Assembly: GCA_012813795.1 (NCBI GenBank)
Contig: GCA_012813795.1_4087.1
Origin: a phage
DNA: 64,000 nucleotides
Strand: one strand, 5' to 3'
Under the pieces are notes generated by a model, which saw only the letters and a list, made by a program, of their open reading frames with translations, ran no database searches and was not told the DNA's origin. Shown in pieces: positions 18,236-55,385 of the stretch (the stretch's first letter is position 1; each line of letters opens with the position of its first letter). Position numbers and translations under genes: made by a program.

Positions 18236-20155
18236 TTAGTTTTGTTTCACCCCACCCCATTTTTCATAGATGGCAATAATTTTATCTATGTTGTTTGGTG
18301 TAGTTGTTTCAGTATACCCGTCTGGCATTTCTTGTTTAGTTAAAACACCTTTACCAAATCGTTTCTTACATTCTTTTTCAGCCTGTTTACAATCACCATC
18401 AGTATTAAAGAAGAATGTATGTGATGATACAACTTCAAATTTACAGCTTTTATTTTGGCTTTTATGTCGAGTACCTTTATTTTTTTCTATACCATATTTT
18501 ATTGCAATAGGGATGTCACCATCTTTAATTATATTAATATAAGCATATTGTTGGGTATATCCAACTTCATGTGAGTGTCCACTTTTACGGTCAACATGTG
18601 CATACGGTGTTGTAAAAAATTCACCATATTCGGGATGAATTATACACACATTAGTTGCTGTGTTAATATATTCTACTTTAGAATAATCATACAAATCACC
18701 ATGTACTTCTTTGGCTTTTTTAATGAAATCTTCTTTATTTTTAAATCGTAATCTACAGAATGGGTGTTGTCCCCCTTTTAAGTGGTGGTAAGGGGATGTG
18801 TGATATTCTCCATATTCTGGGTGGATAATACATACATGGTCATCAATACCAATATATTCTACTTTCGAATAATCATACAAATCACCATGTACTTCTTTGG
18901 CTTTTTTAATGAAATCTTCAGTGCACATTCGGGCTAAATCACTCCTTGATTTTACCCCACGAATTGGACAACCTTGCCCTGATAAATGAGATGATGGTGT
19001 TTGCCAAAATTCACCATACATAGGATCGATGATACATATTTTAGTATTACTGTTAATATATTCTACTTTCGAATAATCATACAAATCACCATGTACTTCT
19101 TTGGCTTTTTTAATGAAATCCAAAGTCGTTCCAGTCCTTTTGTTTTTTAATAATACTTTCGCACGTTTTGGATTATTGGCACCGTTTAAATGATTATTTG
19201 GTGTTTGCCAAAATTCACCATACATAGGATCGATGATACATATTTTAGTATTATTGTTAATATATTCTACTTTAGAATAATCATACAAATCACCATGTAC
19301 TTCTTTGGCTTTTTTAATGAAATCTTTTAATGTTAATTTTACATTTTTAGTTACAATATGCAAATTACATCCAGTTCTAGATAATAAATGATTAACAGGT
19401 GTAATTTCAAATTCACCATATTCATTATGAATCAATGTTACTTTTGTTCGGTAATCAACATAATTTATTTTTGAATAATCATATGTGTTTTTGAATTTCT
19501 CTTTAGATCTTTGTATAAATTCTTCTCTAGAAAGTTTTTGTTTTTCAGTTGTCTTTATTCTACCAGCTTTTGGATGTCCTTGTCCCTTCACATGACATTC
19601 TGGTGTTTGCTTAAATTCGCCAAATTCTGGATGAATTATTAAGACTTTAGTTTTGTAATCAACATAATTTATTTTTGAATAATCATATATGTTTCCATGT
19701 GTTTTTAATGCACGTTCTAAAAACATTTCCTTTGAAATTTTATTTTTTATATTTTTTTCTTTTAATTTATCCAAACCATGTTTTGGATGACCTACTCCGT
19801 TAAAATGATCTCCAACCAAAATCCAATGTTCACCATATACAGGATGAATGATACAAACTTTATTTTTGGAATTTACATAGTTTACTTTTGAATAATCATA
19901 CAAATCACCATGTACTTCACTAAATTTTTTCAATACACTTTCTTGTGTTAATTTTTTATTCTTCTTTCTGGATGGATTGTTTGAACCGTTCAAATGGTTA
20001 CCTGGAAGCATCCAAAATTCTTCATTACGTTCAATATCAATTATGCATATTTTTTGGGCGTGGTTTGTATATTCAACTTTAGAATAATCATACATGTCTC
20101 CATGTATTTTTTTAAATTCTGTAATAATACTTTCGGTTGACCACTTTTTACGCAT
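18236..20155 (-). CDS. tandem-repeat protein (8 repeats of about 55 aa, core HGDxYDYSKVxY...CIIHPxYGEF) with distinct C-terminal domain
   Basis: 639-aa ORF; repeats nearly identical at DNA level; function unknown. Confidence 0.7.
   Translation of the reverse strand: MRKKWSTESIITEFKKIHGDMYDYSKVEYTNHAQKICIIDIERNEEFWMLPGNHLNGSNNPSRKKNKKLTQESVLKKFSEVHGDLYDYSKVNYVNSKNKVCIIHPVYGEHWILVGDHFNGVGHPKHGLDKLKEKNIKNKISKEMFLERALKTHGNIYDYSKINYVDYKTKVLIIHPEFGEFKQTPECHVKGQGHPKAGRIKTTEKQKLSREEFIQRSKEKFKNTYDYSKINYVDYRTKVTLIHNEYGEFEITPVNHLLSRTGCNLHIVTKNVKLTLKDFIKKAKEVHGDLYDYSKVEYINNNTKICIIDPMYGEFWQTPNNHLNGANNPKRAKVLLKNKRTGTTLDFIKKAKEVHGDLYDYSKVEYINSNTKICIIDPMYGEFWQTPSSHLSGQGCPIRGVKSRSDLARMCTEDFIKKAKEVHGDLYDYSKVEYIGIDDHVCIIHPEYGEYHTSPYHHLKGGQHPFCRLRFKNKEDFIKKAKEVHGDLYDYSKVEYINTATNVCIIHPEYGEFFTTPYAHVDRKSGHSHEVGYTQQYAYINIIKDGDIPIAIKYGIEKNKGTRHKSQNKSCKFEVVSSHTFFFNTDGDCKQAEKECKKRFGKGVLTKQEMPDGYTETTTPNNIDKIIAIYEKWGGVKQN
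18640..20140 (-). repeat. intragenic tandem DNA repeats (about 165-bp units)
   Basis: ttctactttcgaataatcatacaaatcaccatgtacttctttggcttttttaatgaaatc recurs several times. Confidence 0.6.
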
Positions 20156-20384
20156 TACTTAAAACTCCTTTCCAGTACTGAACCCGTCCAGCACCATTAA
20201 TCTTAGCCTGAATCTTATCTTTTTCGACAAGACCTTCTTTGTAATCTATGGACGTATTATCGCACTGAATTACATCTAAGTCAAGTACTTCTTGTGTACT
20301 TAATGAAGTATTGTCTGCAATTTGTTGTAAAGTAATTATATCAGTACCGAAGAATTCTGCTAAACGTATAAAAGATAGTTTCAT
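20148..20384 (-). CDS. hypothetical protein
   Basis: 78 aa; GAGG RBS; downstream of module A2. Confidence 0.55.
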   Translation of the reverse strand: MKLSFIRLAEFFGTDIITLQQIADNTSLSTQEVLDLDVIQCDNTSIDYKEGLVEKDKIQAKINGAGRVQYWKGVLSNA

Positions 20385-20410: not shown

Positions 20411-20443
20411 ATTATAGCAAAAAGGGCTGACCGAAGTCAACCC
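20411..20443 (-). promoter_or_regulatory. family-A module (hairpin + TTGACT-N18-TATAAT)
   Basis: revcomp GGGTTGAC-ttcg-GTCAGCCC-tttttgc-TATAAT. Confidence 0.65.
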
Positions 20444-21139: not shown

Positions 21140-21172
21140 ATTATAGCAAAAAGGGCTGACCGAAGTCAACCC
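21140..21172 (-). promoter_or_regulatory. family-A module (hairpin + TTGACT-N18-TATAAT)
   Basis: same element as 20411..20443, upstream of denV. Confidence 0.65.
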
Positions 21173-24247: not shown

Positions 24248-24280
24248 ATTATAGCAAAAAAGGCTGACCGAAGTCAACCT
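24248..24280 (-). promoter_or_regulatory. family-A module (hairpin + TTGACT-N18-TATAAT)
   Basis: revcomp AGGTTGAC-ttcg-GTCAGCCT-tttttgc-TATAAT. Confidence 0.65.
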
Positions 24281-28530: not shown

Positions 28531-28563
28531 ATTATAACAAAAAAGGCTGACCGAAGTCAACCT
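28531..28563 (-). promoter_or_regulatory. family-A module (hairpin + TTGACT-N18-TATAAT)
   Basis: revcomp AGGTTGAC-ttcg-GTCAGCCT-tttttgt-TATAAT. Confidence 0.65.
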
Positions 28564-50696: not shown

Positions 50697-51465
<769 letters not shown>

Positions 51466-51468
51466 ACA

Positions 51469-51601
<133 letters not shown>

Positions 51602-51602
51602 A

Positions 51603-51702
<100 letters not shown>

Positions 51703-51746
51703 ATAGGCACATACGGGTCTGCTTTTAAGCTACTGATTCGGGAATC

Positions 51747-51792
<46 letters not shown>

Positions 51793-51799
51793 CGTTCTT

Positions 51800-52018
<219 letters not shown>

Positions 52019-52027
52019 TAATACCCT

Positions 52028-52429
52028 TTAGTAGTTTAAGTCAGCGGCGTTGAACACACCGAGTGAAGTCTTACCACGTAGTTTAGGGGAAATGACATAT
52101 TTTGTCAATGTCTTTTTACCGTACCAGTACTCGAAATCTTTTTCTTCTACATACGGATTAGGGAAATCCCATTTGCGTTCTTTATGAATTTGCTTGGCCT
52201 GGACTTGAAGCTTTTCAACTTCATCTGGTGGTACAGTATCTACATTATTAAACTGCATGTACATACCTTTTAACCCATCAAGAATTAATTTTTCAGTTTC
52301 TTTAACTAATGTAATCTTTTCGATTCCAGTACTGATATTCATGTAGTCATCTACATAACCATTCCAGATAACAATCTCTGGATTACCTTCGATTCCCTGA
52401 AGCATCTTGATCAAGTCATTCTTTTTCAT
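52028..52429 (-). CDS. hypothetical protein
   Basis: 133 aa. Confidence 0.6.
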   Translation of the reverse strand: MKKNDLIKMLQGIEGNPEIVIWNGYVDDYMNISTGIEKITLVKETEKLILDGLKGMYMQFNNVDTVPPDEVEKLQVQAKQIHKERKWDFPNPYVEEKDFEYWYGKKTLTKYVISPKLRGKTSLGVFNAADLNY

Positions 52430-52437
52430 TTGAATTC

Positions 52438-54078
<1,641 letters not shown>

Positions 54079-54263
54079 ATCACCAACTTTAATTAAAAAA
54101 ATGGATGGTGACGCTTTTAAACGCCGCTGTTAATTCAGCTTTATAACCACCCGTTTTAACTTGCCTTTCGGCTACCTTGACGTGGGGCGTACAGGCTACT
54201 AAAAGCAACTTCTGTAAACATATTTCCACGCCTTACCATTTTCATTATATCAGTACTTTTATC

Positions 54264-54503
54264 TTATACTTTAGTTAGTACTAAGTTGTTGATGTTGTTT
54301 ACATCTGGACAGACGTCGGTGCGATGCATCAATTCAATATCAAGAATGTATTGTTTGATTTTTGAAATGTCAATGTCTTTTTCTTGCATTACGATGATAC
54401 ATGACTCATTTAAAGTATATGTATCATAAGACCATCCCATTCCATCACCACGTGGAACTTTTTGTGATACATTATAACTATAACTCACAAAATACTTACC
54501 CAT
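54264..54503 (-). CDS. hypothetical protein
   Basis: start moved to Met11 ATG downstream of promoter 54536..54563 (track start is TTG next to the -10). Confidence 0.55.
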   Translation of the reverse strand: MGKYFVSYSYNVSQKVPRGDGMGWSYDTYTLNESCIIVMQEKDIDISKIKQYILDIELMHRTDVCPDVNNINNLVLTKV

Positions 54504-54531
54504 TTCAATATACCTTCTGTTGTTAAGATAC

Positions 54532-55385
<854 letters not shown>

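What the first reader, a model, noticed from the sequence alone, without database searches (positions are those of the whole stretch)
18236..20155. 639-aa protein built from eight near-identical ~55-aa repeats
Repeats have the core F(I/L)KKAKEVHGDLYDYSKVEYIN-NTKICIIDP-YGEF-TP--HL-G; the most similar units are nearly identical at the nucleotide level, implying recent expansion. The C-terminal 130 residues form a distinct Cys/Lys-rich domain. The repeat resembles motifs I associate with nuclease-associated DNA-binding modules, but I cannot assign it.
Basis: partly seen in the sequence, partly recalled or inferred. Interest (0 to 1): 0.5.

Follow-up and report, generated by a model that had tools for sequence, protein, structure and literature searches.

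The report
Phage homing-type nuclease with repeat array
This jumbo-coliphage gene most likely encodes a selfish, homing-type DNA-cutting enzyme whose DNA-binding part is a chain of eight copies of one small module; the design is already described for phages, so it is fairly ordinary, except that all eight modules lack the module's usual zinc-binding residues.

Summary
The 639-aa ORF (18236..20155, minus strand) is real and holds eight tandem units plus a separate C-terminal domain. The units are not near-identical. Their period is 62-71 aa and pairwise identity is 26-81%. Only R5/R6 look recently duplicated. R5-R8 share an exact 50-nt block, while their 3' halves are saturated at synonymous sites, which points to gene conversion or mosaicism.

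The units are clear homologues of the CapR/DUF4379/DUF723 treble-clef DNA-binding repeats found 5-11 times per protein in thousands of phage nucleases. All eight lack the family's C-H-C-C zinc ligands.

The window is an Asteriusvirus about 97% identical to phage A4 on both flanks. In relatives the same slot holds different nuclease genes with 0-1, 2, 3 or 5 repeats, one of them frameshifted.

This matches the repeat-bearing T5orf172 homing endonucleases described by Barth et al. 2023. It is a new member of a known kind. The zinc-less modules are the only mildly novel point.

The parts
18236..20155 (-). Complete gene, 639 codons plus stop. Layout: MRKK, eight DNA-binding repeats, then a C-terminal nuclease domain.
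   Evidence: ORF list. PHROG 681 'endonuclease' at E 3e-94, covering aa 336-638. AGGAG lies 9 nt upstream of the ATG.
19952..20143 (-). Repeat R1 (aa 5-68). It is the most divergent unit and has a 1-aa insertion in the hairpin. Residues at the four ligand positions: D-R-N-R.
19739..19951 (-). Repeat R2 (aa 69-139). Ligand positions: H-Y-H-H.
19535..19738 (-). Repeat R3 (aa 140-207). Ligand positions: H-F-H-A.
19337..19534 (-). Repeat R4 (aa 208-273). Ligand positions: H-Y-C-L.
19133..19336 (-). Repeat R5 (aa 274-341). Ligand positions: D-Y-N-R. It is 95% identical to R6 over 138 nt.
18929..19132 (-). Repeat R6 (aa 342-409). Ligand positions: D-Y-C-R.
18743..18928 (-). Repeat R7 (aa 410-471). 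Ligand positions: H-Y-H-C.
18557..18742 (-). Repeat R8 (aa 472-533). Ligand positions: H-Y-gap-S. Weak homology (about 60-70% identity) to phages A4, phAPEC6 and E9.1 begins inside this unit, at window 18718.
18239..18556 (-). C-terminal T5orf172/MUG113-like GIY-YIG-fold nuclease domain (aa 534-639). Family-invariant residues include Y539 (18539-18541), K553 (18497-18499), G555, R563 (18467-18469), E593 (18377-18379) and E616 (18308-18310).
18681..18730 (-). Exact 50-nt block GATTTCATTAAAAAAGCCAAAGAAGTACATGGTGATTTGTATGATTATTC, one of four identical copies. The others are at 18867-18916, 19071-19120 and 19275-19324. It is a likely substrate or footprint of gene conversion and unequal recombination.
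   Evidence: 4 exact matches against 0 expected. dS is 0-0.09 in this block, while the rest of the units is saturated.
20148..20384 (-). Upstream 78-aa gene, conserved in all relatives. Its end overlaps the nuclease ATG by 8 nt, so the two genes form one transcription unit.
   Evidence: No Pfam hit.
20411..20442 (-). Terminator-promoter cassette upstream of the 78-aa gene. It consists of a hairpin containing the -35 TTGACT, a T-run, and a TG-extended TATAAT.
18197..18233 (-). The same terminator-promoter cassette immediately after the nuclease stop codon. It ends the unit and starts transcription of the next gene, a 256-aa AAA-type ATPase.
18360..20152 (.). Segment that differs from the about 97%-identical phage A4. 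There is no homology from 20152 to 18718, and 60-70% identity from 18718 to about 18395. Identity returns to 93-100% below about 18360, inside the nuclease domain.

Best explanation
The gene most likely encodes a free-standing homing-type endonuclease of an Asteriusvirus jumbo coliphage.

Shown here:
- The N-terminal 530 residues are a chain of eight independently folding modules of about 54 aa. They are homologous to the CapR/DUF4379/DUF723 treble-clef DNA-binding repeats.
- The C-terminal ~105 residues form a divergent T5orf172/MUG113-type domain with the GIY-YIG fold. The family-invariant residues that align with T5orf172/MUG113 motifs (Tyr, Lys-x-Gly, Arg, Glu, Glu) are present.
- The gene sits in a slot that holds different nuclease genes in close relatives.
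- In those relatives the nuclease genes in this slot carry different numbers of repeats.

Inferred:
- The modules line up along DNA and together recognise a long target.
- The nuclease domain then cuts nearby.
- Repair from the nuclease-carrying genome during co-infection spreads the gene and its flanks.
- The repeated, partly identical DNA lets unequal recombination and gene conversion add, delete or overwrite modules. That would retarget the enzyme.
- All eight modules have replaced the family's C-H-C-C zinc ligands. R1, R5 and R6 carry Asp at the first position and Arg at the fourth, with Tyr at the second in R5 and R6; R2, R3, R4, R7 and R8 carry His then Tyr/Phe. They probably fold without a canonical zinc site.
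For: Repeats:
- Eight units score 90-111 bits against their own profile.
- That profile finds 907-909 units in 120 homologous proteins, 5-11 per protein.
- The whole protein matches 7771 proteins at E<=1e-5.
- The consensus of those units passes Pfam's gathering score for DUF4379 (25.4 bits against 24.5). It also matches CapR and DUF723 below their thresholds. Homologues P0001 and P0023 hit DUF4379 and DUF723 at 67-83 bits.
- CapR binds DNA specifically (PMC8096241).

Nuclease domain:
- 510 cluster representatives carry it; in every one of the 150 listed it lies at or near the C-terminus.
- 20-21 of 51 hit T5orf172/MUG113, best E 8e-6 and 4.5e-6.
- hhalign to MUG113-positive tails gives 86% probability and E 4.8e-6. 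It aligns YAYIN to ILYYL, KYGI to KIGIT, Arg to Arg, and DGYTET to SGNTEL.

Homing-gene signatures:
- Flanks are about 97% identical to phage A4, but homology stops at the start codon and resumes inside the nuclease domain.
- 121Q and PBECO4 carry unrelated nucleases in the same slot, with breakpoints at the gene borders.
- A4 has 2 repeats, phAPEC6 has 3, and Turkey3 has 5. The E9.1 copy is frameshifted.
- The same architecture and the same recombination behaviour are described for T5orf172 homing endonucleases in PMC10448857.
Against: - The protein's own sequence hits no Pfam, NCBIfam or PDB entry. Every family assignment therefore goes through homologues or a predicted fold.
- The zinc ligands are absent from all eight modules. 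In CapR, mutating the four Cys residues abolishes DNA binding (PMC8096241), so DNA binding here is not assured.
- The repeat model has no significant neighbour among solved structures.
- No relative with an empty slot was found, so no target site could be read off.
- No cleavage or homing data exist.
Confidence: 0.75

Rival explanations
1. Domesticated derivative. The protein has the same parts but no longer homes. The phage would use it as a weapon or regulator, for example to cut a competing phage or satellite or to repress a promoter. The CapR repressor and the Odn nuclease of the ICP1/PLE system are examples of this route.
For: CapR-type modules have been co-opted as a transcriptional repressor, and T5orf172 nucleases as anti-satellite effectors (PMC8096241, PMC10448857). 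The gene has no promoter of its own and is translationally coupled to a conserved 78-aa gene. Every relative examined keeps some nuclease in this slot.
Against: No PADLOC defence-model hit. The slot shows turnover, a frameshifted allele and breakpoints at the gene borders, which is typical of selfish genes rather than conserved host functions. The catalytic-motif residues are retained, so a pure repressor role is unlikely.
Confidence: 0.12
2. Decaying remnant. The gene is an inactive homing endonuclease whose DNA-binding modules were disabled when they lost their zinc ligands. It persists only because too little time has passed for it to be deleted.
For: None of the eight modules keeps C-H-C-C. 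Cys-to-Ser changes abolish CapR DNA binding (PMC8096241). Between R5 and R6, dN/dS is close to 1 (0.78 overall). Decay is normal for these genes, as in the frameshifted E9.1 copy.
Against: The 639-codon frame is intact. The ligand replacements are not random. The D-Y/F-(N/H/S)-R combination recurs as a coherent set in Turkey3 and in whole arrays of 7-9 modules in marine metagenomes, including a 76-member cluster. That argues for a selected zinc-free version. Other family-conserved positions (Y15, D16, Y17, S18, Y22, G37, F39, H46) are mostly kept. The nuclease motifs are intact. Loss of zinc chelation with retention of the fold is documented for treble-clef domains (PMC4999995).
Confidence: 0.1
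3. Not a DNA enzyme. The repeats would bind RNA or protein, and the C-terminal domain would be a non-catalytic fold.
Against: Homologous arrays are fused to several unrelated DNA nuclease domains: T5orf172, Vsr/DUF559 and GIY-YIG. CapR binds DNA (PMC8096241). The conserved Tyr/Arg/Glu set matches GIY-YIG chemistry.
Confidence: 0.03

Closest known systems
T5orf172 homing endonucleases with repeated CapR/DUF723/DUF4379 domains (Vibrio phage ICP1 gp174 and relatives, phage Helene; Barth et al. 2023, PMC10448857)
   Same: An N-terminal chain of repeated small DNA-binding modules followed by a C-terminal T5orf172-type GIY-YIG nuclease. Repeats recombine to give in-frame gains and losses. Domains are swapped between genes. 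The genes sit at boundaries of exchange between related phages.
   Different: Here the host is an E. coli jumbo phage. There are eight modules, and none has the zinc ligands. Both the modules and the nuclease domain are too divergent to hit the Pfam models on their own. The family is reached only through homologues.
CapR, capsid-operon repressor of the Vibrio cholerae satellite PLE (Netter et al. 2021, PMC8096241; Pfam PF21817)
   Same: The same DNA-binding module family. CapR provides the only experimental evidence that this module binds DNA specifically.
   Different: CapR has no nuclease domain. Its DNA binding depends on the four Cys residues, which are absent here.
Group II intron-associated phage endonucleases with 3-5 CapR-like domains plus a Vsr/EDxHD nuclease (PMC12350094)
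   Same: A tandem array of ~60-aa CapR/DUF4379/DUF723-like modules followed by a ~100-aa C-terminal nuclease domain.
   Different: A different nuclease superfamily, and located inside an intron. The gene here is free-standing and has a GIY-YIG fold.
I-TevI and the T4 Seg proteins (classical GIY-YIG homing endonucleases)
   Different: The domain order is reversed: in I-TevI the nuclease is N-terminal. I-TevI has a single zinc finger plus a helix-turn-helix, not a repeat array. No NUMOD-type Pfam hit was found here.
Same-slot nucleases of other Asteriusviruses (A4_225, phAPEC6 gp019 'exonuclease ABC C subunit', Turkey3 'DUF4379 domain-containing protein', PBECO4 gp306, 121Q gp221)
   Same: The same genomic slot. 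A4, phAPEC6, E9.1 and Turkey3 share the same nuclease domain (phmmer E 1e-46 to 1e-53) and zinc-less repeats of the His or Asp type.
   Different: A4 and phAPEC6 have an unrelated 330-aa Cys-rich N-terminus and only 2-3 repeats. Turkey3 has 5 repeats. PBECO4 and 121Q have another nuclease domain and 0-1 canonical repeat. No database protein exceeds about 52% identity to the window protein.

Membership tests
T5orf172 / MUG113 (GIY-YIG superfamily) nuclease domain | The protein's own sequence matches Pfam PF10544 or PF13455 | tested here: not met
   No hit for the whole protein at E<=1 or for the isolated C-terminal domain at E<=10. HMMER's speed filters drop most matches above E about 0.1.
T5orf172 / MUG113 (GIY-YIG superfamily) nuclease domain | Homologues of the domain match the Pfam models, and a profile of the family aligns to recognised members | tested here: met
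   20 of 51 homologues hit T5orf172 (best E 8.2e-6) and 21 of 51 hit MUG113 (best E 4.5e-6). hhalign of the family profile against MUG113-positive tails gives 86% probability and E 4.8e-6.
T5orf172 / MUG113 (GIY-YIG superfamily) nuclease domain | GIY-YIG fold: a three-stranded sheet with flanking helices | tested here: met
T5orf172 / MUG113 (GIY-YIG superfamily) nuclease domain | Conserved catalytic-motif residues: the Tyr of 'GIY', the K/Y-x-G of 'YIG', Arg, and the metal-binding Glu | tested here: met
   Y539, K553, G555, R563, E593 and E616 are invariant across 51 family members and present in the window protein. Y539, K553, G555, R563 and E616 align with the corresponding motif residues of the MUG113-positive tails; E593 falls in the matching conserved-Glu region. 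Their catalytic role is inferred.
T5orf172 / MUG113 (GIY-YIG superfamily) nuclease domain | DNA cleavage activity | not testable with these tools
   Needs biochemistry.
CapR / DUF4379 / DUF723 treble-clef DNA-binding repeat | Sequence homology of the units to the family | tested here: met
   A profile built from the eight window units finds 907-909 units in 120 proteins. The consensus of those units passes the DUF4379 gathering score and also matches CapR and DUF723. The homologues hit DUF4379 and DUF723 at 67-83 bits. The window units alone give no Pfam hit.
CapR / DUF4379 / DUF723 treble-clef DNA-binding repeat | Four zinc ligands (C-H-C-C here; CxxC...CxC in CapR) | tested here: not met
   The window units read DRNR, HYHH, HFHA, HYCL, DYNR, DYCR, HYHC and HY-S. 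Among the 911 homologous units, positions 1 to 3 carry C, H and C in 91-92% of units each, and 68% of units carry all four ligands as C-H-C-C.
CapR / DUF4379 / DUF723 treble-clef DNA-binding repeat | Treble-clef-like fold: a beta-hairpin knuckle plus a short helix | tested here: inconclusive
   The AF2 model of R5-R6 has pLDDT 94.8. Each unit shows helix, hairpin, short helix. pTM is 0.59, so the units are not predicted to pack in a fixed arrangement. The input alignment is dominated by zinc-bearing homologues. There is no significant PDB neighbour.
CapR / DUF4379 / DUF723 treble-clef DNA-binding repeat | Sequence-specific DNA binding | not testable with these tools
   Shown only for CapR (PMC8096241).
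Free-standing homing endonuclease gene | Variable occupancy of one intergenic slot among close relatives, with breakpoints at the gene borders | tested here: met
   Homology to seven relatives ends at 20152/20153. It resumes at 18233-18238 in five of them (121Q, PBECO4, Turkey3, E9.1, phAPEC6), although in A4, phAPEC6 and E9.1 a weaker match (about 86-87% identity) already runs from 18718. The slot holds five different gene versions. No relative with an empty slot was seen.
Free-standing homing endonuclease gene | Decayed or rearranged alleles in relatives | tested here: met
   The E9.1 copy is split by a frameshift inside a repeat. A4 and phAPEC6 differ by one repeat.
Free-standing homing endonuclease gene | Cleavage of the cognate allele and biased inheritance in mixed infection | not testable with these tools
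   Needs experiments.
HNH endonuclease (label of PHROG 559 and of some relatives' annotations) | An HNH / His-Me finger catalytic motif or Pfam HNH hit | tested here: not met
   No HNH family among the Pfam hits at E<=1. The PHROG 559 match covers aa 270-468, which is repeats only.
NUMOD nuclease-associated DNA-binding modules (NUMOD1/3/4) | A match to the NUMOD Pfam models | tested here: not met
   None among the Pfam hits at E<=1. The resemblance is functional: a modular DNA-binding domain attached to a nuclease.

The most novel reading that the evidence does not exclude
The zinc-less units may be a distinct, metal-independent form of the CapR/DUF4379 module. In it an Asp/Tyr/Arg set or a His/Tyr set would replace the zinc site. 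Long arrays of these units would then read DNA module by module. The specificity would lie in the hypervariable positions that flank the near-invariant His (family columns 25-26, 42, 44-45, 48 and 50). That would make them a naturally shuffled recognition array, loosely comparable to zinc-finger or TALE arrays, and possibly re-engineerable.
Probability: 0.15. Interest if true: 0.6.

Novelty: new member of a known kind. Interest (0 to 1): 0.3.

Why it matters
The gene is a clear example, in a jumbo coliphage, of something already proposed for Vibrio phages. Homing-type nucleases are assembled from interchangeable DNA-binding repeats and nuclease domains, and they mark the points where related phages exchange DNA.

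Two points may deserve follow-up:
- A whole subfamily of these modules, here and in marine metagenomes, lacks the zinc ligands that CapR needs for DNA binding.
- Pfam-based annotation misses both halves of this protein. Public records therefore label its relatives inconsistently as 'hypothetical', 'HNH endonuclease', 'exonuclease ABC C subunit' or 'restriction enzyme'.

Tried and rejected
- Tandem Repeats Finder found no array of the right period. The copies are too divergent and differ in length.
- Direct Pfam, NCBIfam and PDB sequence searches with the protein, single repeats and the C-terminal domain gave only sub-threshold hits: BDV_P40, DUF3903, WD40_alt, PAS_3 and tandem-95. All were rejected as noise.
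- The word-indexed homologue search with the C-terminal domain returned a single protein. The exhaustive HMMER scan was needed to find the family.
- A profile of the C-terminal family against PDB sequences gave only a chance hit to TUP1.
- PADLOC gave no defence-system match.
- The exact protein is absent from the gene-position index. IMG/VR holds only a 44%-identical relative. Copy number could therefore not be compared among true orthologues of the array.
- The labels 'HNH endonuclease', 'exonuclease ABC C subunit' and 'restriction enzyme' on relatives were considered and rejected as family assignments.
- A simple 'recent tandem expansion' model was rejected for R7 and R8 because their 3' halves are saturated at synonymous sites.
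- My first local alignment suggested that the gene marks a 97%/86% identity boundary with A4. This was rejected. Both flanks are about 97% identical, and the low figure came from the divergent part of the nuclease gene.
Full report
**1. Observation**

The ORF list shows an ATG-initiated 639-aa frame at 18236..20155 on the minus strand. Anchoring on the motif YDYSK gives eight units with start-to-start spacings of 64, 71, 68, 66, 68, 68 and 62 aa. A six-frame motif scan found this motif only inside this gene within the 64-kb window.

At the DNA level, a 70-nt segment recurs eight times at spacings of 186-213 nt. One 138-nt pair, R5/R6, is 95% identical. An exact 50-nt block occurs four times against 0 expected in shuffles. 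Tandem Repeats Finder reports no array of this period.

The repeat structure is therefore real and far beyond chance. 'Near-identical' is an overstatement, though. Over a gap-free 57-aa core, pairwise identity is 26-81% at the amino-acid level and 46-83% at the nucleotide level.

The C-terminal part is a separate domain of about 105-112 aa. It has 3 Cys (2.3-2.8%, the same as the rest of the protein) and 13-15% Lys against 13% overall. It is not Cys/Lys-rich.

**2. How the repeats evolved**

In R5-R8, codons 5-26 (DFIKKAKEVHGDLYDYSKVEYI) differ by a single synonymous change, giving dS of 0-0.09. Codons 27-57 have dS of about 0.2 for R5/R6. For pairs involving R7 or R8, dS ranges from 0.7 to saturation.

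A recent duplication can explain R5/R6. For R7 and R8, the sharp break in divergence within a unit points to gene conversion or mosaic assembly that overwrote only the 5' part.

Across the wider family, the most variable positions lie mainly in the second half of the unit (columns 25-26, 42, 44-45, 48 and 50) and flank a near-invariant His.

**3. What the repeats are**

The protein itself has no significant Pfam, NCBIfam or PDB sequence match. It does match PHROG 681 'endonuclease' (E 3e-94) and PHROG 559. It also matches 7771 proteins at E<=1e-5, none more than about 52% identical.

A profile built only from the eight window units finds 907-909 units in the 120 best homologues, 5-11 per protein. 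Eight copies is therefore typical for this family.

The family consensus is EEFIEKAKEVHGDKYDYSKVEYVNSKTKVCIICPEHGEFWQTPSSHLSGSGCPKC. It passes the gathering score of Pfam DUF4379 ('probable treble clef zinc finger'). It also matches the CapR homology domain and DUF723 below their thresholds. Homologues P0001 and P0023 hit DUF4379 and DUF723 at 67-83 bits.

CapR is an experimentally shown sequence-specific DNA-binding protein, and its four Cys residues are required for binding (PMC8096241). Barth et al. (PMC10448857) describe T5orf172 homing endonucleases that carry several CapR/DUF723/DUF4379-type domains as 'beads on a string'. They report recombination between repeats producing in-frame deletions and domain swaps. 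A 2025 paper describes 3-5 such domains in front of a Vsr-like nuclease (PMC12350094).

**4. The zinc ligands are missing**

Among 911 homologous units, the first three ligand positions are C, H and C in 91-92% of units each. 68% of units read C-H-C-C at all four positions.

The eight window units read DRNR, HYHH, HFHA, HYCL, DYNR, DYCR, HYHC and HY-S. None is canonical.

The replacement is not random:
- The set D-Y/F-(N/H/S)-R recurs in Turkey3's five units.
- It also makes up whole arrays of 7-9 units in nine of the 120 homologues. These come from marine metagenomes, include a 76-member cluster, and end in a classic T5orf172-like tail.
- The His-type units (IIHPxYG...GHP) were seen only in the Asteriusvirus proteins.

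An AF2 model of R5-R6 is confident within each unit (pLDDT 94.8; helix, beta-hairpin, short helix). It has a low pTM of 0.59, so the units are not predicted to pack in a fixed way. The input alignment is dominated by zinc-bearing homologues, so this model does not prove zinc-free folding. No solved structure resembles it significantly. Loss of zinc chelation with retention of the fold is known in other treble-clef families (PMC4999995).

**5. What the C-terminal domain is**

An exhaustive HMMER scan found 510 cluster representatives at E<=0.001. In all 150 listed the domain lies at or near the C-terminus. Most of them have 0-1 detectable repeats, and none of the 150 best has more than 6.

- Y, K-x-G, R, F, E, G and E-T are invariant across 51 members. 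All are present here as Y539, K553, G555, R563, F583, E593, G613, E616 and T617.
- The window domain alone hits no Pfam family. However, 21 of 51 homologues hit MUG113 and 20 of 51 hit T5orf172, with best E-values of 4.5e-6 and 8.2e-6.
- hhalign of the family against MUG113-positive tails gives 86% probability and E 4.8e-6, with the motifs aligned.
- The AF2 model is very confident (pLDDT 93.7, pTM 0.84).

I conclude that this is a divergent T5orf172/MUG113-type GIY-YIG nuclease domain. Catalysis is inferred.

**6. Genomic context**

The window is an Asteriusvirus-like E. coli jumbo phage. Phage A4 (ON286972.1) is about 97% identical on both flanks of the gene.

The gene overlaps the end of a conserved 78-aa gene by 8 nt and has an AGGAG ribosome-binding site. 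The pair is bracketed by two copies of a 32-nt terminator-promoter cassette, which occurs five times in the window. The neighbours are a DenV-type pyrimidine dimer glycosylase and an AAA-type ATPase.

In seven relatives, homology ends at 20152/20153, the start codon. It resumes either at the stop codon or inside the gene. The slot holds:

| Phage | Gene product | Content |
|---|---|---|
| A4 | 565 aa | Unrelated Cys-rich 330-aa N-terminus, 2 repeats, same nuclease domain |
| phAPEC6 | 628 aa | As A4, but 3 repeats |
| E9.1 | Split in two | As phAPEC6, broken by a frameshift inside a repeat |
| Turkey3 | 432 aa | 5 zinc-less repeats plus the same nuclease domain, followed by three extra genes |
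| PBECO4 | 379 aa | Other N-terminus, one canonical repeat, a different T5orf172-like tail |
| 121Q | 487 aa | Other N-terminus, no detected repeat, a different T5orf172-like tail |

Sources for the table.

Against A4, identity is 93-100% up to about 18360. It is 60-70% from about 18395 to 18718, and there is no homology from there to 20152. The whole array and the first half of the nuclease domain have therefore been exchanged in an otherwise near-identical genome.

**7. Conclusion**

The anatomy, the family links and the behaviour of the locus all match a free-standing T5orf172-family homing-type endonuclease with a modular DNA-binding array. This kind is already described. I found nothing that requires a new mechanism.

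The exact protein is not in the public gene index or in IMG/VR, so it is a new member. Two details go beyond the published description. The zinc ligands are missing from all eight modules. Both halves of the protein are too divergent for Pfam to detect.

I rate interest at 0.3.

Noticed in passing
window 18197-18228, 20411-20442, 21140-21171, 24248-24279, 28531-28562 (all minus strand): A 32-nt intergenic cassette, GGTTGACTTCGGTCAGCCCTTTTTGCTATAAT, occurs five times against 0 expected. It combines a terminator-like hairpin, whose stem contains a -35 TTGACT, with a T-run and a TG-extended -10 TATAAT. It probably ends one transcription unit and starts the next. It could also serve as a recombination site for swapping gene cassettes.
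   Followed up: partly
window 51131-55260, minus strand: A cluster of five tRNA genes: Thr(tgt), Asn(gtt), Met(cat), Ser(act) and Ser(tga).
   Followed up: no
L002 (phage E9.1) 2014-3977; L003 (phAPEC6) 2014-3900; L001 (A4) 2435-4132: The same-slot nuclease differs by exactly one repeat between phAPEC6 (3) and A4 (2). In E9.1 it is split into two ORFs by a frameshift inside a repeat. The two E9.1 ORFs are annotated 'HNH endonuclease' and 'endonuclease'.
   Followed up: yes
L004 (phage Turkey3) 2992-7052: In Turkey3 the slot holds a 432-aa five-repeat nuclease followed by three further genes of 80, 471 and 352 aa. These are absent from the window, which suggests a small island of mobile genes.
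   Followed up: partly
proteins P0094, P0108, P0071, P0112, P0004, P0017, P0025, P0029 (marine metagenomes, some binned as Candidatus Thioglobus): Arrays of 7-9 units, almost all zinc-less of the D-Y/F-(N/H/S)-R type, are fused to a classic T5orf172-like tail (..YKIGIT..SGNTELF). One cluster has 76 members. The zinc-less form is therefore widespread and not peculiar to this phage.
   Followed up: partly
window 18575-18751 and 18782-18937, plus strand: Two antisense ORFs of 58 and 51 aa share the peptide FYFRIIIQITMYFFGFFNEIF. They are the reverse-strand image of the repeated 50-nt block and are very unlikely to be genes.
   Followed up: no
window 20148-20384, minus strand: A conserved 78-aa protein with no family match is translationally coupled to the nuclease gene (8-nt overlap). 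It is kept in every relative, whichever nuclease follows it.
   Followed up: partly
window 17398-18168, minus strand: A 256-aa P-loop AAA-type ATPase lies directly downstream. It is annotated 'transcriptional regulator FleQ' in Turkey3 and 'hypothetical' elsewhere. It gives only weak AAA and STAND-type Pfam hits, almost all below their gathering scores.
   Followed up: no
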